Shown piece after piece: positions 2,924 to 55,127 of a stretch of DNA of 64,000 bases. Below the pieces are notes generated by a model. It was not told where the DNA came from. It saw nothing but the letters and a program-made list of their open reading frames with translations, and ran no database searches. The stretch is taken from the NCBI GenBank assembly GCA_010015805.1, contig ML978122.1:1770453-1834452 (forward strand). The letters are read 5' to 3'. Both the position numbers and the translations under genes were made by a program. Position 1 is the stretch's first letter, and each line of letters begins with the position of its first letter. The stretch is from Rhizodiscina lignyota (taxonomy: Eukaryota).

Positions 2924-4931
2924 ATTGATCTGTGCTTAATTGGTAGTGAAATTACAGAAAGAAGCTTCAGCTGTGCACTTGAAAAATTGAGGTGACCTAC
3001 GAGAAAATATACTTCACCAATTGCCGACTTGCTTCAAGCCCAGAGCCACTTGCGGGACGGGCTCCATGTGGGTCATGCGGGGGCAGTGGGGTACAGTATG
3101 CACCGTTCCGAACGGAGTGAGCGTAGGTTGGCCTCTTACCTTGAATGTCCTCTAGGGTTTGTTTGAGACCAGGAAAAACTGCCTCAGTAACATAACGAGG
3201 CTGGAAGTGTGGCCATAAGTGCTGATTCTCGGCTTCTGGCGGGCGTACACAGTACACAGTACAATGTGGAATACAGAGTAGTACTAGTGGGTTGCTAGTA
3301 TGTATTCAAACCTTTTGCTCACATGTGAAAAATTCTCAGGCATGAAGCGAGCTGTCCCAAGCATGATTCAGGGACGTGGACGACCCTGTTCTGTACAGCG
3401 GATACAAAGCAACCGCTGCAACATCTGCACGGAAATAGCCAGGGGATAACCCGGAATAGGTAGTGGGTACAAGGAGTAAGTACTGTAGATCTCAGACGGT
3501 GAAGATAGACGGTGAAATTCACGGCGTTCATTCCTTCATAGGCATGCTCGAAGGTGACAAGATAGGCAGTGGGCGCCGGATGAGCTGTAACACTTAAGGG
3601 CAAGTGGTTTGTGCACTTCAAAGTAGGTGAGACTATCTCTGGAGGCTTAGTTCTACACTCTTGGGAGTGTACACAGCAACAGCATACCGTTGAAGACCAT
3701 TTCCATCTTGGTAGGAATAGAGACTATACTCTACAGCTGCTCAGTATCTTGAAGCTGTGTCTTGAAAGCTGTAGCCAATTTTCTGGTCAATCCCGAGGGA
3801 TCGAAGTCCATACCGTTTGACCGTTGACCGTTTGACGGACGCCTTTCCCCCGGTCGAAAGGTGACCAGGTCTCGGCCCTTGGGTCGACGCGGGGTAGGTG
3901 CACAGCTTGTACAACTGGGGGTTAAAAGTCTAATCTCTGAAGAGCCAAGCGTTCATTGCAGGGATTTACGGATGCAACCGTTCATAGGCGAATTGTTAGT
4001 AGGCGACTTCAAATGGCAGGTTGTGAGGGCTCAGAGAGCGAGCGAGTTCGAGGTTGATCACCGCTATTTCAATAACGGCTTAGCACCGGTAGATCCTCGG
4101 CGTCGTCACATCTTCCTCGTCAAGTCCGCCTCCAAATGTAGGATAGAGACATCCATCTTCGATATGCGCTGCCGGCGTCAATTACTGTTTACATGCGACG
4201 TGAACGCCTATCGGACAGTAAACAAATTTGGACCTCTTCATGCCGAATACGCGGCAGTCGTTATAATGTCAAGTCAGCTCATTTTTCTTTCGAGACCTAG
4301 AAGCACTTTCATTATATGCTTTGGATAAGTTCAAAGACGCATTTCTTCTGCTTGAGCTGTGGTGAATCTACCCGTTAGACTTGAAGAGTAGCCACCTCAA
4401 AGACCCTCAAATGCCACTCAAAGATTGAGAGACTTTTCACTTGTCTGGTGTCAAGTACCTTATTACTACTCTGCTACTGCCAAATTCGCGGGGCTTTCCG
4501 TCGCGTGGCGTAACTTCAACATCGGACCTCGGGGTCTTCTTGTCACATCTTCTCCAAGGCCAGACTTTGGGCGCATTTCATCCTCTCCGCCAGTAAATGT
4601 CCGCATGACTCCACATGGTCCATTCGAATTGGCAGGTCAACTGGATCAACTGTCACGCTGCCACCGCCGATCTCCAGCCAAAGGACCCTGAGACTGCAGG
4701 TCAGCCTGGATTCGCCTCAAACAACTTGCCCTGCATATTTGGAGAGCGAGCCACTATCGCCGCTACTCTTTATCGCAATTGCCATCCTCTGGCCGGAACG
4801 TTGCCGCTCTTTATGGATGCTTAAATGAGAAGTGGTTTTCTCATCTCATTTATTTCAGTTTCGCTTCATCTCATCCTCGTATTCGCCGTTAATCGTGGAT
4901 TATTTCACAAACGTCTAAAGTTTACCCCACC

Positions 4932-45115: not shown

Positions 45116-45650
45116 GGACGTGACAACAACAACTGGAGGGGCATTTTATTTCAGTTTCGATATCCCCGTCAATCCTTTCCTTTTCGTGCGTTTAGGAAGT
45201 TTTGCAGCTCATATAGCACGGAGTCAGGATCCTTTGAGCATGGTTAAAGGCGCATAAACTGCGACCTAGGCGGAGACGAACTCTGCTGGCTTTCTTCCTC
45301 CATCTCGGAACATCGGAGGAAGTTTACTGAGGCTGATGATAGCTTCACACCTTTGCAACAGAAGGCAATTGAAAACATCTGATATAGGTGTCTAACAGAT
45401 AGTAATAAATCATACTTACATTCTCAAGAGTGAACAAGACAGCTGGCTGCAAGGCAAGCTAGAGCACCTAAGGGCGAGCAGCTCTTGCACTTCGAGCTAA
45501 GGAAGACCATCTCTGAAAGCTTGGTCTTATGTTCATTGGATTTTATATGACAATGCCATACCGTTGAAGCATTCATACACCTTATCAATTCTGGAGGCTA
45601 TACATCCTAGCTATTCAATGTCTTGACAGCTGCGTCTCATCATTGTGGTA

Positions 45651-45962
45651 TCATGGCTTCCCAGGGGGCCATCCAGCAGTCTCCTCATTCCAGCCCCGGA
45701 CGACATTCCAGTCGTGATTCTGCTTTTCGGACATGGTCGGGTCGTAGCATTTGCACACCGCCTCAAAGGAGTCGCATTTCAATTTTTGTTGGAGCTCCTC
45801 GAATTGTGACGCACTCAGCGTGACCAGCCAGTAATGTTGCTTCTTCTCGACATTGAAGGGTTGGAGCAGATCCGGTGCGGTCTCGGCATTGGGATATACG
45901 ACGAATGTTGCACGCTCGCCCCGGTGATGTTTGGAGACTTCGCAGGACGGGATGTGTGGCAT
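45651..45962 (-). CDS. 103-aa protein homologous to the pro-domain region of the neighbouring subtilase (putative inhibitor/chaperone)
   Basis: Strong start context GCCAAAATG; FVVYPN…LLQPF…HYWLVTLS…CKCYDPT aligns with subtilase YIVYPN…LLGTF…NYWTLPLT…CDTSCFDPS; no signal peptide. Confidence 0.7.
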   Translation of the reverse strand: MPHIPSCEVSKHHRGERATFVVYPNAETAPDLLQPFNVEKKQHYWLVTLSASQFEELQQKLKCDSFEAVCKCYDPTMSEKQNHDWNVVRGWNEETAGWPPGKP

Positions 45963-47599
45963 TTTGGCGTTGATGTGACGTGAGGTAGTACGATATGAGA
46001 TGACTAGCCCCTTATTATCCGGACCCTTGCGGGTTTGGAGAAGCCTGGGGACGTAACTCCGTCCTCCTGAATGGAGAAAGTTATGCGTGGTTGGTATTTC
46101 CGCGAGCGCTTAAATGCTTGAAACTGATGGATCGGAGAAGCTAGGTTTAAAAGGGAACTTTAGTGGCCTCGAGAATGCTTTCGGCCGAGAAAGCGTATTT
46201 GTGGAAGCTGTCGCGAGTGGTGATGTGACCTCAGACTTTAGTTACAACTGAGGTTGAGATAAATATAAACTACTTTGCCTATCTGGGTAGGGGATAGTGG
46301 AACCAGGGACCGTTAGTCAGCCCGGAGGTGATTGTGATTATCGTGTCACAAGGCTGTGCCAACTCACATACGATAGCTGAGCCTGCCTGAGCAACTCAAG
46401 CCCAAGACTTCAAACAACGGGCGACAGAGAATTTGATATGGCCCGTAAGGACTTCTTCCTGTTCAGGTGCTCGCAGGCGGAGAAGGGTGGTCAAGGAACA
46501 TGCCGAGCGGCCGGCTGAGTAAGATCGTTTGATGAAGCTCGTGGCGCGCGGCAGATCCCAATCTCATCACCTTAACTCCACCATTCGCGCCGAGCGCACG
46601 TCGCAGCAAGAGCACGACGCTCGGGATGTTCATGCAATGTACCTGGTGAGCACGTGCCTAGGGTGTCCTGGATATTCGAAAGGAGGACCACGTCGCGCCA
46701 AAAATGGATAAATCGGAGGGCGCAGTTCCCCGGAACAAGACGCGAGATTCCACATCCTCTCGGTGACTCTTCCGAAAGGATTATTAACCTTAAAGTTAGA
46801 GTACATGCGGGCGGACAGGCCGCTGCCAACCCCGAGAAATGCTGATGCAGGTGCTTCCTTAGTTGATCATTCAAAATTGTTTGGTTGGGGGCTATTCACA
46901 TTTTATGCTCGGACATACGACATCATTTGACGTGGTGGAGATGAAGGACGACACTTGCGAGGTGGCAAGCGACTCTCTACTCTCCTATCCTTCATCAGTT
47001 TGAGAGCAAGATTTTCCTTCCCGTCAATCTCCGCGCCTCAAGTATTTGGGTTGGCGTGAGTGGGAAATGAAAGTGATTATGCCGGATTTAATCACCACGA
47101 AGAGTATCTTCAGCGTGACGAGTCATTAGTGGTCATCGCACGAGGGATTATCTTTGCAATGCCTCCCTCACCACTACCATTTCTCACCTCTCGCAGTGCT
47201 TTGACAAATGAGAGCCTCCTAAGTGCTTCCGAAATCAGGAGTTTCGCGATACGAATTCTTCAGGTCCGTCCGTGGTACGTAGTACCAACTTCGTAACTGC
47301 GCCCCAAACTGTGCTGGGGAGCCGCTGATCGTGGCAAGCCTCAAGCAGATAACCGATGTTGTTATTTCTGTCACTTCTCTCTTTCGAAGACACTCCACAA
47401 TTCACTTGGTTGCTCTCGGCACAAGTTGAGAAAGAAGGCCCGTAAAATGGATCTATAATATTAGAAAGCCATCAGCAACGATCTTCTACAACTAACAACT
47501 GAGTCTTTCTTTTCTACATTCTCATTTTGCTGCTAGCCATTCGTTTTCTTCAAGCCCTCATCTTTTCCTTCTTTCTTTGTAGTTTGTTCCACTTCTACA

Positions 47600-50500
47600 A
47601 TGTTCCGGTCCATTCTCTTCCTCTCCGGAGTCGGGGCAGCACTTGCTCAGTCAGGGACTTTCTCAGTATCTGGCAACTCCACCTTCCATTTCCCTTCCCC
47701 TACAGGTGGCTCTGGAAGCTCTTCCGCTCCCAGCACCTCTCCCCCGAGCTCCTCCGTCTCTTCAACTTCGGGCTCTCCAATAACTAGCAATGGCCCATCC
47801 GGTGTTACGGTGATAACTGTTGCACCAGCCACGGATACCCCTACGACGACATTCACGGATACCTCAATCAGCATAAATCTGCCTTCCAACATCGCCACCT
47901 CAGTCATCGTCACAAACCCATCGAATCCAACAGAGACAGCAACCTTCACTAAGGAGACACTTCCGCAAGACGAACGATCCAATCTCCCACATATCGACGA
48001 TGCGGCGCCTCTGGCACTTCTTCTTTTCTTGGGCGGCGCCCCAACTTTCGTCACGATAACTTCTGCTTTCGAAATTGTCCTTCCAATCGGTACTCTACCA
48101 GCTGCATTCACACTTGCTCTGTTTCCGGACGCTGCCGACGTTCCTGATCCAGATGACGGTGACGATGGCGATAACAACAGCAGCAGTTCTTCCGATGAAT
48201 CTTCTTGCTCAACAAAGACCACAGTTTCTTCTTGTGTGGTTTCTGTATTCTGTCCAACCACCGTTCAGCAGAAGCGGGATAGCTCTTGCACTACGACGAC
48301 TTCCTGCGAAGCCACATCTGGCTGCAGTGTGACAGCCACTACAACAACCACAACAGTTTCCAGCACAGCAACAGCTTCGTCTTATATTGTCTATCCAAAC
48401 GATGGTACAAATACTGGTCAAACTGATGCGATTACGACGCTACTCGGGACTTTCGCCGACACCAAAGATATTGATACTTCAGACACCAAAGACTACGGTA
48501 TCAATTACTGGACATTACCGCTGACTTCAGATAACGTTACGGATCTGTCCAAGAACTCAGACGTAAGAATTGCTACATATCATCCACACGAGTAGAAGAA
48601 CTGATGTTTGATATGTTTCAGATTGCTTCCGTTTCACTAGCAGGTTGTGATACTTCCTGCTTCGACCCCAGCACGGCTATTGTAAGACAAGCAAACGCCG
48701 AAGACGGACTCGTTTTCCTTTCACAGGAAGAAGGAGAAGCATTGGCCGTATATGGTAAGAATTACTTTTACGATGAGAGCGCAGGTTCCAATGTCAACGT
48801 TTACATCGTCGACTCTGGAGCAACCATAGACCATGAGGAGTTCACTGGAGGCGATAATATTGCTCAACGAGCCCGCTGGATCTTTGCGGATCCGCAAGAT
48901 ACTACTCAAGCGGACTATGGCTATGGCAAGTACCATGGGACCTGCATGCTCAGCAGAGCTGGTGGACACATTTATGGCACTGCGAAGAAGATCAACCCGA
49001 TCGTTGTGAAGGTCAATTACCTGACAGCGGGGGCTCAGGCATTCGTTGACGCCATGGGTATGGTGCTTGAAGACATTCGGAACAATCCAGGCACAAAGGC
49101 TGTGGTGAACATGAGCTGGTAAGTTCTAGCTCTGCGGACGCTTGGGTTGGTCCTGACTGTACAAGGTTCTATCCATCCAATAAGGTGCCAGCTGGCTGGA
49201 TATCGCGCCTTTTCTTCCTCCTAAGCCAAATCGAGAGGGAAGGCGCATTCATGGTCACTGGATCTGGAAACAATGGCGCCGTATGTCTCACAATCAGATC
49301 AGTCTCTCAGATCTAGCTAACATCGAGCAGTCGTCAATTGATGGCTATCCAGCAAAGTTCGGGAGTGACCAACAAAATCCGCACGTCGACAGTCTGCTTG
49401 TTGTTGGTGCAGTTGATCCGTCTACGGGAGATATGTGGGGCGGTTCAAATTACGACAACGGCCTTAAGCTTCCCCACGTGTTTGCGCCTGGAACAAATGT
49501 CATGTGTGCGGATGGCATCAACCTCCCCGGACATGAGTATCGCACGGGAACCGGAACTTCAATAGGTAGGTTTCTTGGATATTCATGCGGATGGTAGCTA
49601 ATCGCTTCGGTAGCATCGGCAGTTACGGCCGGTCTGGCGGCCTATCTTATGGGAGTTGGCTCCCTCTCTAGCATAGCTGGTAGCCCGGGGCAAGTCAAAT
49701 CCCTTATCATGTTCGATTCCTGGAAGAGGGCTCAAGGCGGCCCGGTGAGCAACGGCCTCCTAGGCCTCTGGAATGGGATCAAGGTTTCCGACATACCAGC
49801 GAGCTGCTCTGCCATTGCCAAGCGTGATGGAACCGATCCGACAGATCTTCCTGCCGCTTGTAGCTGTACTTCTTGCCCCTCTAACCCAACCTCTCCACCA
49901 ACCACTGTCCCGACCACAGGGCCAAGCACGGCGCCTCCGTCATCAACTGTCAGCTCGAATTCCTCATCGATATCTGCTTCAAGCACGTCTTCGTCATCAA
50001 GCTCCTCTGCTCCGAGTCCAAGCAGCTCGCTCACTTGTGGGCCGGATATAACCAGCAGCGACTTTACGAACAAAGACGTGGCGAATGCAATCACAGCCAA
50101 CAATGGCGTGGAGAGCATGTGTTCGACCACTTTCGGCTCCTCTCAAGGTCCAAATGAAATTTCCTACAACACTGGCTCGATCGGCACAACCATAGAAAGG
50201 GATGATTCAAATCGCCCTCTTCAGCATTGCCAAGAAGGTATCAACGCCATCATCAACAGTTGTATCAACGACCAGAACAAGTTCGGTGGTGTCTGGGAGG
50301 GCGACGGCGAAACGTACAACATCACGAATCTTTTCAACCCGCCTTCCATTCCAGGAACAGACACATTCCCAAGCGCCTCAAGCTCTGTGCCTCCTTCGAC
50401 TTCCGCGTCACCAACGTCAACAGCATATTCTTGTGTCACGAACCAAGTGAGCGCCGTTCCAACATCCCTGCTGTCCAATGATGACCCACCCGTCACGCTC

Positions 50501-51091
50501 AGCCCCAATGATCTACTCTACCGTCTCCGCCAAGTCGTTTGCGGCGAAGAATGTGGCTCCCTTCCATCTGGTGTTCCTTCCGCAGACGTCTCAACAGGCC
50601 AAGACGGCGACAAATGTGGCCTCGCAGTCGCACTTCCAGGCAATGTCCAAGCGATGATGTACCGCGGCACAGCAGCCAACGGCTCCGAATTGCAGGAATG
50701 CTGGGACGAGACTCAGCACATCATCGACGACTGCATCAACTCGCAGCCCAATCTCGGCTGGGCGAACGGACCGGATGACTTCCAGTTCTACCAAGGCGGT
50801 TTCATGAGCTTGAATGCGGCGATGCCCGGTAGCATCAGCTACTCGACGTTCGATGGATCGAATGTCATGCCTACCCCGACGCCTACTACAGTGTCGTGTC
50901 CAGATGGGTGCACGCCGGCGGGAGGATCTTGTTTGTGTGACGGTGGCCCGGCGACGACGACTACAAGCTCGAATCCATACCCCCTTTGTACGGGTGTGGA
51001 TATTGCGAGCTTGACTTGTGATAATAACTGCTGTGGATTTATTGCTTGCCCGGATTGGTGCAACAATAACTGCGGTGGATCAGTTTGTTGA
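47600..51091 (+). CDS. Large secreted subtilisin-like (S8) protease with Ser/Thr-rich N-terminal region and Cys-rich C-terminal domains
   Basis: Signal peptide MFRSILFLSGVGAALA; catalytic VYIVDSG (D), YHGTCMLS (H), GSGN (oxyanion N), GTSI|ASAVTAG (S); exons 47600-48562, 48622-49118, 49166-49280, 49331-49565, 49614-51091. Confidence 0.92.
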
Positions 51092-51520
51092 GCTCACTCC
51101 AGTGACGCAAGGAACTTCCATTTACTTCATTTCAACATACTTCGTTCGCAACACATGGTATTGCACATGTTAAGCAGAAAATAGAATTTAGGTGAAGTGC
51201 TATTTTCAATGAAAGAATACGATTGATCAATGGTCCGTCAACTCGAAAGAACTGAACCACAGGCACCGTTCGCCGATATTATCGCTCACAGTTTACTCTG
51301 CTACGCATCGTAAACAACATTTTAAAACAATACTGAAACATCTCAGTCTGCCGACGCCGATACTTACTCCGCAGGTCAAGTACGAAGGTAAAGTGGCGCA
51401 GCCACTAGATCTTATTTAGTATAGTCTCATCCTCCCACGGAACCTTGGAGCAAAAAGTTGGCGGCAGCTTTCTGAGCTCATGAACAATAGAATATTGAAT
51501 GTAAGATACAACAGTCACTA

Positions 51521-51661
51521 GATTCGTCTTCGACTTTCAGCATCATCTTTGGAGTCCTGGGAACCGCGGTGGCCATCCCTTCTATGCTTCTCGCAGTGAT
51601 CAAGCTGAGGAACTATTGGCTTTCTCGACCCGCTACCGTGAAAAATGCGCTCTTTCGCTGA
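51521..51661 (+). pseudogene. Fragment of small single-pass membrane protein family (paralog of 55413 and 56681 genes)
   Basis: Reads DSSSTFSIIFGVLGTAVAIPSMLLAVIKLRNYWLSR…stop; no in-frame ATG found just upstream. Confidence 0.55.
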
Positions 51662-51940
51662 AGCTAGACGGGACCCTGGCTTAGCGCTCATGAATTTAAA
51701 ACTACAGATCTGTGGTTGCGAGTGAGTGCACAGTTTACTTTAGAATCTTAGCGGTAGCTTTTACCCCCTAATAGCTCGAGCGAAAGAACGATAGCGCGTT
51801 TGCGCATCTTGGAAAGAAATCATTTACCCCTCTTTGCAATTGTAAAGTCCTGTGTCGCTGTCTCCGTGTTCTTGTTGATCTGATTCCGCATGCTCACTCC
51901 ATTGGCGTCGGGATAACTTCCATCATACATAAAACAGTCG

Positions 51941-54079
51941 TCAGTCGTTATCCCAGCAGTCGTCTTCGATCGAGCGGGCAGTAGGATACTTTTCTTTCCA
52001 CACGCGGCGGAACTCTTCCATCACGTTAGCCGTCGCCGCGCCGTTCTGCATTTCGGCCATCTCAGCGTGCCAGTGGAATCTGCTACGCAGGAAGAAGTCG
52101 ATGTCGTCAAGGTGTTCCTGAATGTAATCGTCAAACGGGATGAACTTGAGCGTCGCAAGGAGGCCGTGGCAAGATACAAAGTGCGCATCAAAGCATGGCC
52201 CCGTGTATTTGGTCAAGACGTCTTGCACATCGTCGTTGCAGAGGAAGTCGCGGACGGTTCGGTGTAGGAAATCGACTGTGATGTGGAGGGACTCCACGGG
52301 ACTGGGTTCGCTGCTGGGGAATGGGGCGAATACCTCTAGCAGGCCCTTGGCTCTAGCATGAAGACGAGTTCGCATACGCGCGATCCTGGTCCAGACTTTG
52401 TCTCATCTCTGTGGATGTAGACCGGCTCAACCGAGCGGAGCATGAGGTGAAAATAACCCTCTAGAGTTTTCGAGAGTGCGTCTAGTCGTTTCCGCAGTAC
52501 TGTGATTGTATCTTCGTTCGAAAGCCCCTCTAGGAGTGATCTTACAACTAGATACACCCAGAGGAAGACGCCTTTGGCATCCTGTACGATCTTGGAAATC
52601 AGCTCTTCGTAGCCTTTCTCTTCGCTCTGTTTGTGAACAAACGACACGTCGGCTCCTATCGTGCTGCGTACGTAAAGCGCGATGTCTTCTCGAGTTAGGT
52701 CCTGGAGATATAACCTGCGGTTCTTGTTCCGATCAAACTCTCGTTCAAAGATAGGCCACGGTCGACTTGAGACGCAGAATTTAATACAGGCTATAGAGGA
52801 AAGGCTCTTCAAGACATCGAGGAGGTCGCGATGATTCCCATCATACTCATCCAGCCCGTCAATGAAGAAGCCAAACCTCATTGTCGACGCTTGTCCAAGA
52901 CCGTCGGCTAGTCTTTCCAGCCCAGCAAACAGCTCATCTCGAGTCCACTGATCGTCAATGGCAGCTCCACATCGGTCAGGAAATAGCTTTTCGGCGGCCT
53001 CTGGGTACGCCTCCAGTACTTCCACAAGCAGGGTCCTCATCAGGCCTTCCTGTGACTTTTGCATGGCCATGCCTGCATTCCAGAAGAAGAACTTCGCGAC
53101 AACCGGCTGGTATGGGGCAGCCCACTCCTTCAAATTTGCACGTGTTGCCGGATGGTCGCATACGAATTTCATCAGAGTAGACTTGCCAGATCCTGCTTTA
53201 CCACCGATCCAGAAGATGCCGTCATCAGGCTCGCGTGACCGTAGCCACTTTGTGAATAGGCTTTCGGACGAAACAATCCATTCGAAGGTTTTCGCATGAG
53301 CTTTCGCGATATTCGATTGCCGCACTGGGAGCTCTCGGAATCTGAGGTTGGCAAGAAATTTTGACTGCAGCCACAAAGTCGTCATGTCGGTGGCTATACT
53401 CGAAATCTTTGGTTCCAGTTTGACCAGGCTCGACTTGGTGATTCCGGTTGAACTAATTTCCATAACAGATTCGAGCTTCTCCTGCAGCCTGTCAATCTTG
53501 CCATCCTGTGCGAGATTCCTGCTCTCATTCTTGCTGGCGAGGTCGCGTAGCTCTTTCAAAATGCTCACAATGCTTGAATTCTGTTCTCTGGATCAATGTT
53601 AGCGCCGCTGAGCAGTAACGTCTCGCCACGACCTACCTCGTGCTAGCCACAAGATTCAAGCCTAACTGACTGCGATACTCATTGAGCCGCCTTCTGCATT
53701 CCTGGATCTTCGCTTGCTTAAAGGTGGCTCGCACGGCCTTCTGAAAGCTCCTTAAGATCCTTAGTTGCGGCTGCGCCTGGATCTCCTGTAGCTCCGTGAG
53801 GAGAAGATTCGCGTCTTCCTCGCATCGCTGGGCAATCGTCGCAATGCTTTGGTCATTGGCGGTAAATTTGGATCCCAGTACTTTGGATGAGCCATCTCTC
53901 AGAGTTTTACTGAGTGTTGCGAGATCCGCGGTCATGCGCTTGAGGTTCTCATGCTTGACGAGGCTGCCTTCGCGCGACTTGTAGATCTCGTGAGTGCCAG
54001 CGGCTACCTTCGAGGTGAAGTCGATGAATTGGACGATAGTGCCTGCGAGCGCAAACGCTGATAGAGGGTCAAGCACCAT
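51941..54079 (-). pseudogene. NACHT-domain NLR-like gene with SesA/HeLo-like N-terminus; frameshifted near 52340-52400
   Basis: MVLDPLSAFALAGTIVQFIDF N-terminal domain; Walker A GKAGSGKS; Walker B FFIDGLDE; GVFLWVYLV; downstream GLLEV…VDFLHRTVRDFL lies in another frame with no plausible intron. Confidence 0.8.
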
Positions 54080-55049: not shown

Positions 55050-55127
55050 TCAGAGGATTTTGAGTGCCAAGCCCTTTCAAAGCCCTTTCAAACGTTTTGA
55101 AAGGGCTTGGCACTCAAAATCCTCTGA
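55050..55127. repeat. 78-bp palindrome with perfect 32-bp arms
   Basis: TCAGAGGATTTTGAGTGCCAAGCCCTTTCAAA / TTTGAAAGGGCTTGGCACTCAAAATCCTCTGA; the 14-bp spacer contains a duplicate GCCCTTTCAAA. Confidence 0.95.

What the first reader, a model, noticed from the sequence alone, without database searches (positions are those of the whole stretch)
45651..48669. Stand-alone subtilase pro-domain homolog head-to-head with its cognate secreted protease: candidate protease/inhibitor (immunity) pair
Seen: the 103-aa ORF 45962-45651 (minus, start context GCCAAAATG, no signal peptide) reads TFVVYPN…DLLQPF…QHYWLVTLSASQFEELQQK…AVCKCYDPT. The subtilase segment directly before its catalytic domain (48380-48669, intron removed) reads SYIVYPN…TLLGTF…INYWTLPLTSDNVTDLSKN…AGCDTSCFDPS. 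Four ordered motifs match, including the C-x(1-3)-C-[YF]DP end. The genes are divergent, about 1.6 kb apart. Known: subtilisin pro-peptides are chaperones/inhibitors, and free I9-type inhibitors (POIA1, yeast Pbi2) exist. Inference: this is a dedicated cytosolic inhibitor or trans-chaperone co-regulated with the protease, resembling a toxin/immunity arrangement. The intronless, indel-diverged but stop-free ORF argues against a recent dead duplication.
Basis: partly seen in the sequence, partly recalled or inferred. Interest (0 to 1): 0.85.

Follow-up and report, generated by a model that had tools for sequence, protein, structure and literature searches.

The report
Shrunken protease pro-domain beside its family
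A small unannotated fungal gene is a shortened, free-standing relative of the 'safety cap' that the neighbouring secreted protease carries on itself; it may act as an inhibitor inside the cell, like known free caps, or be a worn leftover, and nothing yet shows that the two genes work as a pair.

Summary
The 103-codon ORF (45962-45651, minus) is a true homolog of the pro-domain of the divergent subtilase 1.6 kb away. Pairwise similarity is weak, but a family profile built without the ORF scores it 22.3 bits (0 of 5000 shuffles). The family is I9-like. The ORF has 20 residues between two anchor motifs where 146 of 146 measurable relatives have 33-42. An alignment-guided model still keeps the beta-alpha-beta-beta-alpha-beta fold, with subtilase propeptides as tied top matches (Z 5.4-5.5). 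Conserved columns are kept preferentially (13 of 24 vs 4 of 36), so it diverged under selection. The 'dedicated immunity pair' reading is unsupported: no ortholog was found, no second pro-domain lies beside 4 informative homologous genes, and expression and binding are untested. Most short database 'stand-alone' hits are exon fragments. Free I9 inhibitors are known (Pbi2, POIA1, TrI9), and the scan earlier noted stand-alone pro-domain-like proteins in two other genomes. Verdict: lineage-restricted partial duplicate; free I9-like inhibitor about 40%, dead relic about 35%.

The parts
45651..45962 (-). 103-codon intronless ORF (P0001), not annotated; shortened stand-alone homolog of the subtilase pro-domain; no signal peptide
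45735..45914 (-). Homologous core, residues 17-76; model elements: strand 18-22, short helix 30-33, strand 37-40, strand 45-49, helix 51-61, strand 66-68, then the Cys-x-Cys-Tyr-Asp-Pro-Thr end that lines up with the propeptide end
45651..45734 (-). C-terminal tail (residues 77-103 and stop); no significant homology to the mature enzyme; low model confidence
   Evidence: (13 of 220 random anchors score as high)
45434..45584 (.). Short dispersed repeat starting 67 bases past the ORF's stop; other copies in the window (3583-3695, 68%) and in contigs of run X1
45963..47599 (.). 1637-base divergent intergenic region; no significant family-like coding remains found
   Evidence: tblastn with 148 family proteins; the significant hits fall in the ORF
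47600..48562 (+). Subtilase exon 1: signal peptide, Ser/Thr-rich and Cys-rich linker, most of the pro-domain (from 48380)
48622..49118 (+). Subtilase exon 2: end of the pro-domain (to 48672), catalytic Asp385 (48811) and His426 (48934)
   Evidence: base positions are my arithmetic from the residue numbers
49166..49280 (+). Subtilase exon 3 (oxyanion-hole Asn region)
49331..49565 (+). Subtilase exon 4, catalytic Ser602 (49559)
49614..51091 (+). Subtilase exon 5: end of the catalytic domain, Ser/Thr linkers, sub-threshold fungal-lectin-like and Cys-rich C-terminal parts; the whole model is 1095 aa with one terminal stop

Best explanation
The ORF is a lineage-restricted small gene that arose by partial, inverted duplication of the pro-domain of this subtilase family (shown: homology; inferred: origin from the neighbour or a lost local paralog). 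It lost the signal peptide, the catalytic domain, the intron and about 18 core residues, but kept the motifs of the I9-type fold and the propeptide end (shown in sequence; fold predicted). It most likely works like a free I9 inhibitor. The sheet would pack on the two surface helices of a family subtilase and the Cys-Tyr-Asp-Pro-Thr stretch would lie in the active-site cleft, with the 27-residue tail clipped or left hanging (inferred from known propeptide complexes). Having no signal peptide, it would guard the cytosol against mistargeted or leaked protease, probably weakly and not only against the neighbour (inferred). My odds by step: homology 0.97; live gene about 0.6; inhibitor if live about 0.65.
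For: Profile homology without the ORF in the model. The family profile aligns across the propeptide of pro-proteinase K, 8rse_A (E 7e-6 for pro-domain plus mature start), and 2 of 30 members pass Pfam Inhibitor_I9. The alignment-guided model keeps all six elements (pLDDT 77-88 over residues 11-60). Its two top matches among 48161 chains are a subtilase propeptide (9ues_A, Z 5.5, rmsd 1.9, 56 aligned) and the 81-residue chain of a protease entry (8c4x_B, Z 5.4, rmsd 2.6, 62 aligned); POIA1 scores Z 4.4, rmsd 2.5, 57 aligned. Identity to the neighbour is 13 of 24 at conserved columns and 4 of 36 at variable ones (Fisher p 4e-4). A neutrally decaying copy stays stop-free in only 9-12% of simulations at this divergence, before counting in-frame indels. 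GC3 is 0.67, above all 126 intergenic windows (maximum 0.61); the codon score is reached by 4 of 57 wrong-frame ORFs. Free I9 genes are known in fungi, and two NCBI gene models of this family end just after the Asp-Pro motif.
Against: No ortholog: 1 candidate and no hit in the word-indexed search, none in metagenomes, and no protein carrying the ORF's sequence among the 150 best representatives although it would score 66.8 bits. The ORF is not annotated. It has the longest branch of 52 (2.48, median 0.63) and a deletion seen in 0 of 146 relatives. Several strongly conserved positions are changed, among them the Val that is 91% conserved and the Ser that is 79% conserved in alignment A2. Pfam I9 is not hit. 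The fold scores are under 8 and tied with unrelated ferredoxin-like folds, Foldseek has no match at E 0.001, and the model was guided by the family alignment; without it there was no match. The synonymous-codon score is reached by 10 of 57 wrong-frame ORFs and 22 of 126 intergenic windows. It has a 27-residue tail after the predicted P1 region, whereas TrI9 is described as binding by its C-terminal loop without prime-side contacts. No linked pro-domain in 4 of 4 informative homologous genes.
Confidence: 0.4

Rival explanations
1. Dead or dying relic. A second family subtilase once stood head-to-head with the neighbour, diverged under selection as a full protease (or as a free domain for a while), and was later cut down; the ORF is what is left and does nothing now.
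For: Orphan, unannotated, longest branch, unique core deletion. Preferential keeping of conserved columns is also expected of a once-functional paralog. A dispersed repeat lies 67 bases past the stop, where a catalytic domain would have been. Broken-looking family copies occur elsewhere: L002 and L003 have a frameshift in the pro-domain exon (could be assembly error). The ORF was noticed because it is open, which weakens the open-frame argument.
Against: No significant remains of a catalytic domain, signal peptide or upstream exon. An ATG with A at -3 sits 17 codons before the domain. All indels keep the frame. A stop-free frame is kept in only 9-12% of neutral simulations. GC3 0.67 differs from the neighbour's pro-domain codons (0.44) and from intergenic DNA. 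The deletion trims loops and a helix while every element stays in the model.
Confidence: 0.35
2. Live gene with another job. The shrunken fold was kept but recruited to a non-inhibitory role, such as binding another protein or a metal through its four cysteines.
For: Very long branch and loss of the loop between strands 2 and 3, which in pernisine's propeptide inserts a Leu into a pocket of the enzyme (PMC10580911, passages; mapping it onto this family is my inference). Ferredoxin-like folds of unrelated function score as well as propeptides. Yeast Pbi2 and kin are linked to vacuolar functions besides inhibition.
Against: The propeptide-end motif is among the best-kept parts, and its known use is binding the subtilase cleft.
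Confidence: 0.15
3. One reading: a dedicated, co-regulated cognate inhibitor or trans-chaperone that forms a conserved toxin/immunity-like module with the neighbour.
For: Head-to-head linkage at 1.6 kb with a member of the same family; the only family-like pieces in the 64-kb window are these two genes. A sister relation to the neighbour is not rejected (constrained tree 1.0 log-likelihood unit higher, p-AU 0.52). Propeptides can be selective for their own enzyme.
Against: Local duplication alone explains the linkage. No such pairing beside 4 of 4 informative homologous genes. The neighbour has its own well-conserved pro-domain (93.9 bits for its exon-1 part, branch 0.23). The ORF has no signal peptide to meet the folding enzyme. 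Nothing marks the protease as a toxin.
Confidence: 0.08
4. Chance resemblance of a spurious ORF.
For: Pairwise BLASTP E 0.16; no Pfam hit; no Atlas hit; 82 of 2000 shuffles reach the pairwise score against the whole translation.
Against: 0 of 5000 shuffles reach the profile score; window-wide E 4.5e-5; BLASTP E 3e-6 to the unlinked homolog P0038.
Confidence: 0.02

Closest known systems
Free I9 inhibitors of fungi: yeast Pbi2 (IB2), Pleurotus POIA1/POIA2, Trichoderma reesei TrI9 (bioRxiv 10.64898/2026.05.05.722857, passages read; POIA1 structure 1v5i_B)
   Same: Separate small gene for a subtilisin-propeptide-like domain; predicted beta-alpha-beta-beta-alpha-beta fold (POIA1 Z 4.4, rmsd 2.5, 57 aligned).
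   Different: No Pfam I9 hit; derived from a different, divergent subtilase subfamily; about 18 residues shorter in the core than its own family; 27-residue tail past the propeptide end; lies next to a family protease (no such linkage appears in the passages read); activity and expression unknown.
Cis pro-domains (MEROPS I9 / Pfam PF05922) of S8 subtilases, e.g. pro-proteinase K 8rse_A, Tk-SP propeptide 9ues_A, cucumisin propeptide 4yn3_B
   Same: The family profile aligns across the proteinase K propeptide; the top fold match is a propeptide.
   Different: Not joined to a catalytic domain, no signal peptide, so no cis chaperone role.
The unnamed fungal subtilase subfamily of the neighbour (P0002-P0151; pro-domain with Tyr-Val-Val-Tyr-Pro, Phe-Trp and Cys-x3-Cys-x-Asp-Pro motifs; not a Pfam family)
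   Same: All four motifs in order; 22.3 bits on the family profile.
   Different: Anchor spacing 20 against 33-42; intron absent (it is also absent in some relatives); longest branch. Two annotated short members, P0017 (Candelina mexicana, 94 aa) and P0107 (Coccidioides immitis, 198 aa), have full-length cores and end right after Asp-Pro; whether they are whole genes, and what lies beside them, could not be checked.
Bacterial protease operons with a linked cytoplasmic inhibitor (staphopain-staphostatin, protealysin-emfourin); recalled, no paper on them was returned
   Different: Those inhibitors are conserved beside their proteases across genomes (recalled); here no conserved linkage was found.

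Membership tests
Inhibitor I9 (PF05922 / MEROPS I9) | Passes the Pfam Inhibitor_I9 model | tested here: not met
   No family at E up to 1. The neighbour's own pro-domain also fails and only 2 of 30 relatives pass, so the model covers this subfamily badly.
Inhibitor I9 (PF05922 / MEROPS I9) | Homology to a subtilase propeptide | tested here: met
   22.3 bits on the family pro-domain profile, 0 of 5000 shuffles; the family aligns to pro-proteinase K.
Inhibitor I9 (PF05922 / MEROPS I9) | Four-stranded antiparallel sheet with two helices | tested here: inconclusive
   Kept in the alignment-guided model; propeptides lead the list but Z is 5.4-5.5 and tied with unrelated folds; not recovered without the alignment.
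Stand-alone I9 inhibitors (Pbi2, POIA1, TrI9) | Encoded by its own gene with no catalytic domain | tested here: met
   Own ATG and stop; no significant catalytic remains downstream and no upstream exon found. Whether it is expressed is a separate row.
Stand-alone I9 inhibitors (Pbi2, POIA1, TrI9) | Chain ends at the residue that sits in the S1 pocket | tested here: not met
   27 residues follow the Asp-Pro-Thr stretch that lines up with the proteinase K propeptide end. The P1 assignment is inferred from a weak alignment.
Stand-alone I9 inhibitors (Pbi2, POIA1, TrI9) | Expressed as a protein | not testable with these tools
   No RNA holder was listed; codon statistics lean coding but do not show expression.
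Stand-alone I9 inhibitors (Pbi2, POIA1, TrI9) | Binds and inhibits a subtilase | not testable with these tools
   Needs an assay; the complex predictor was not available.
Toxin/immunity or protease/inhibitor gene pair | Linkage conserved across genomes | tested here: not met
   0 of 4 distinct homologous genes with at least 3.8 kb upstream had a second pro-domain (21 loci, about 7 distinct genes). Small sample, none known to be a close relative.
Toxin/immunity or protease/inhibitor gene pair | Partner matched to its own protease | tested here: inconclusive
   Not closest to the neighbour pairwise; tree unresolved and sister relation not rejected.
Peptidase S8 (neighbouring gene) | Asp-His-Ser triad in S8 motifs, in an open spliced frame | tested here: met
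   Asp385, His426, Ser602 in a 1095-aa model. The Pfam score of exon 2 alone is under the cut-off and the NCBI model P0002 does not hit it, but 11 of the 30 proteins scanned pass and the catalytic residues are nearly invariant in 41 aligned relatives.

The most novel reading that the evidence does not exclude
A fungal subtilase gene spawned, by inverted partial duplication, its own cytosolic inhibitor, which then shrank to about the smallest I9-type fold and is co-expressed from the shared promoter. This would be the birth of a free propeptide inhibitor caught beside its parent. The short Candelina and Coccidioides models would then be independent births of the same kind in an unnamed subtilase subfamily.
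Probability: 0.15. Interest if true: 0.7.

Novelty: new variant of a known kind. Interest (0 to 1): 0.38.

Why it matters
Free I9 inhibitors are thought to descend from propeptides, but the known fungal ones are named only as diverged paralogues. A live, shortened copy lying head-to-head with a family protease would show how such inhibitors arise and how small the fold can get, and would be easy to test with two proteins. If it is dead, it is an ordinary duplication relic. Either way the work defines an unnamed subtilase subfamily whose pro-domain Pfam mostly misses, and shows that most of its apparent stand-alone database entries are exon fragments.

Tried and rejected
Whole-genome search: no genome held, so the family's copy number in this genome is unknown. 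Expression: no RNA holder listed; the one run laid gave contigs only. Single-sequence structure: pLDDT 61, best Z 3.5, no meaningful match. Foldseek on the guided model: no match at E 0.001. Atlas: no usable hit for the ORF; for the neighbour's pro-region only leads under 0.9, among them an I9 cluster at 0.87. I first took the many 63-250 aa hits for a large stand-alone family and rejected that: of 101 hits up to 310 aa, 81 lose homology before the last strand, at about the intron site, 14 run on into the catalytic domain and 6 reach the Asp-Pro region (P0119 and P0150 were dropped beforehand as spurious). Of 20 short hits looked up, 18 have Logan, ENA or JGI/IMG representatives and 2 are named NCBI models; 3 are exact pieces of full subtilase genes in fetched loci. 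An apparent run of homology past the ORF's stop codon was not significant (13 of 220 random anchors). An intron-like pattern upstream (46371-46283, minus) occurs in 672 of 2000 shuffles, so it is no sign of a transcript. No DNA-level similarity between the ORF region and the subtilase. The two flanking dispersed repeats are not similar to each other beyond shuffles. No RNA family near the locus except miRNA-like scores on a hairpin at 55050. No close relative of P0017 was found. Literature: searches listed no paper on a free pro-domain gene beside a fungal subtilase, judged from listings and abstract starts; the library lacks most subscription papers, and no supplements were read.
Full report
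Setting. The window is fungal. The subtilase matches an NCBI protein named as Rhizodiscina lignyota (P0002, KAF2103046.1). The ORF lies between a CAF1B/Cac2-type gene that converges on it and the divergent subtilase; beyond that is a SesA-NACHT-DUF7791 gene. The subtilase has five exons (47600-48562, 48622-49118, 49166-49280, 49331-49565, 49614-51091), giving 1095 aa with a signal peptide and Asp385, His426, Ser602. The 103-aa ORF is not in the protein collection.

Is the resemblance real? Pairwise it is weak: BLASTP E 0.16 to exon 1, 82 of 2000 shuffles against the whole translation and 1 of 2000 against the pro-region. I therefore collected the family. Exon 2 found two other full subtilases. 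A profile of three pro-domains plus the ORF found 180 representatives at E 0.001, of which the best 150 were listed. Two spurious rows were dropped. Profiles built without the ORF score it 13.5 bits (three seeds) and 22.3 bits (148 members), with 0 of 5000 shuffles as high. The members were gathered with a profile that held the ORF, so there is slight circularity; the three-seed score is free of it. Across 2402 frame pieces of the window only the subtilase's two exons and this ORF score (E 4.5e-5; next 5.6 bits). Homology is real.

What family? Pfam Inhibitor_I9 misses the ORF and the neighbour and is passed by 2 of 30 relatives. The family profile aligns across the propeptide and mature start of pro-proteinase K (E 7e-6) and weakly to two short chains of protease entries. 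In that alignment the Cys-x-Asp-Pro-Thr stretch falls at the propeptide end, so it is probably the part that enters the active site (inferred).

How the ORF differs. Between the Tyr-Pro and Trp anchors it has 20 residues; 146 of 146 measurable relatives have 33-42. It lacks the intron that splits the domain in the neighbour and most relatives, though some relatives lack it too. It has no signal peptide and a 27-residue tail with no significant homology to the mature enzyme (13 of 220 random anchors as high). It has the longest branch of 52 pro-domains (2.48, median 0.63, neighbour 0.23; 85 columns, bootstrap not settled). Its place is unresolved: it is not closest to the neighbour pairwise, yet a sister relation is not rejected (p-AU 0.52).

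Fold. Alone, AlphaFold2 gave pLDDT 61 and no match. With 57 relatives aligned, residues 11-60 reach 77-88 and all six elements appear in shortened form. The best matches are the Tk-SP propeptide (Z 5.5, rmsd 1.9, 56 aligned) and chain B of a protease entry (Z 5.4); POIA1 scores 4.4. Unrelated ferredoxin-like proteins tie with them, and Foldseek finds nothing at E 0.001. The alignment guides this model, so it shows that the deletion is compatible with the fold, not that the protein folds.

Alive or dead? For alive: identity to the neighbour is 13 of 24 at family-conserved columns and 4 of 36 elsewhere (p 4e-4; the alignment is anchored on those motifs, which inflates this). Neutral decay to 25-33% identity leaves 80 codons stop-free in 9-12% of 4000 runs, and the indels all keep the frame. 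GC3 is 0.67, against at most 0.61 in 126 intergenic windows; the codon score is reached by 4 of 57 wrong-frame ORFs and 5 of 126 intergenic windows, but the synonymous-only score by 10 of 57 and 22 of 126. For dead: no ortholog, no annotation, the unique deletion, changes at conserved positions, and a dispersed repeat 67 bases past the stop. A paralog that was cut down after diverging as a working enzyme would also keep conserved columns, but no significant trace of the rest of such a gene was found. I put a live gene at about 0.6.

Is it a pair? The only pairing evidence is position, which local duplication explains. A metagenome scan gave 21 loci, about 7 distinct genes, 4 with at least 3.8 kb upstream; none holds a second pro-domain at E 0.5 among 9566 frame pieces. 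A sequence scoring like this ORF would have shown. The sample is small and not known to be close. The neighbour keeps its own intact pro-domain, and the two proteins would be in different compartments, so a trans-chaperone role is unlikely. Binding could not be modelled.

A trap. Most short hits look like a large stand-alone family but are intron-blind gene calls: 81 of 101 stop at about the intron, 14 run into the catalytic domain, 6 reach Asp-Pro; three are exact pieces of full genes in the fetched loci. Of 20 looked up, two are named NCBI models that end just after Asp-Pro: P0017 from Candelina and P0107 from Coccidioides. They may be true free pro-domains of this subfamily; their genomic context could not be fetched.

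Comparison with what is known. Independently encoded I9 inhibitors are known in yeast (Pbi2), Pleurotus (PoIA1, PoIA2) and Trichoderma (TrI9, which inhibits several subtilisin-like proteases; bioRxiv 10.64898/2026.05.05.722857, 12 passages read). Propeptides bind through their sheet on two helices and their C-terminal tail in the cleft, and range from selective to promiscuous (PMC10580911, 12 passages). PMC5585356 (12 passages) and PMC7082219 (8 passages) added nothing that bears on the claim. Searches listed no paper on a free pro-domain beside a fungal subtilase; I saw listings and abstract starts only, and no supplements. The ORF works like a free I9 inhibitor at best; it fails two membership features (Pfam model, chain end) and two others cannot be tested here.

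Verdict. Observation confirmed, interpretation partly supported. Free I9-like inhibitor 0.40, relic 0.35, other function 0.15, dedicated conserved immunity-type pair 0.08, chance 0.02. New variant of a known kind; interest 0.38.

Noticed in passing
window 49106-49190 and 50930-52270; P0002 (KAF2103046.1): The NCBI model seems wrong in two places: it skips 11 residues at the exon 2/3 junction that relatives keep, and its last 100 or so residues come from the strand opposite the NACHT gene, whereas the window gives a stop at 51091 after a Cys-rich end.
   Followed up: partly
P0107, P0152-P0154 (Coccidioides immitis and C. posadasii); P0017 (Candelina mexicana): Annotated short proteins made of this pro-domain alone; P0107, P0152, P0153 and P0017 end 2 residues after Asp-Pro, P0154 ends differently. 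The C. posadasii models start Met-Gly-Cys-x-x-Ser, which resembles an N-myristoylation and palmitoylation signal (motif recalled, not tested), hinting at a membrane-anchored cytosolic form.
   Followed up: partly
window 45434-45584 and 51634-51786: Two different short dispersed repeats flank the ORF-subtilase unit; each is matched at about 80% by several other contigs of run X1, and the first has a 68% copy at 3583-3695.
   Followed up: partly
window 55050-55127: Perfect 32-base inverted repeat with a 14-base loop; scores on miRNA models are far below their cut-offs. Possibly a miniature transposon remnant.
   Followed up: no
window 54196-51941, minus: SesA-NACHT-DUF7791 gene, NLR-like, converging on the subtilase. 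The NACHT frame and the DUF7791 frame overlap in different frames near 52340-52400, so there is a short intron or a frameshift.
   Followed up: no
L002:4466-5004 and L003:7896-8434: The pro-domain exon is split by a frameshift in two metagenome contigs but is whole in six near-identical ones (L004-L009): a broken allele or an assembly error.
   Followed up: no
P0005, P0008, P0069, P0131: Family members with two or three matched pro-domain stretches in one chain; P0005 and P0008 are the two that pass Pfam Inhibitor_I9. The domain duplicates readily in this subfamily.
   Followed up: no
window 49614-51091: The subtilase's C-terminal half has sub-threshold hits to alpha-galactosyl-binding fungal lectin models and a Cys-rich end.
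   Followed up: no
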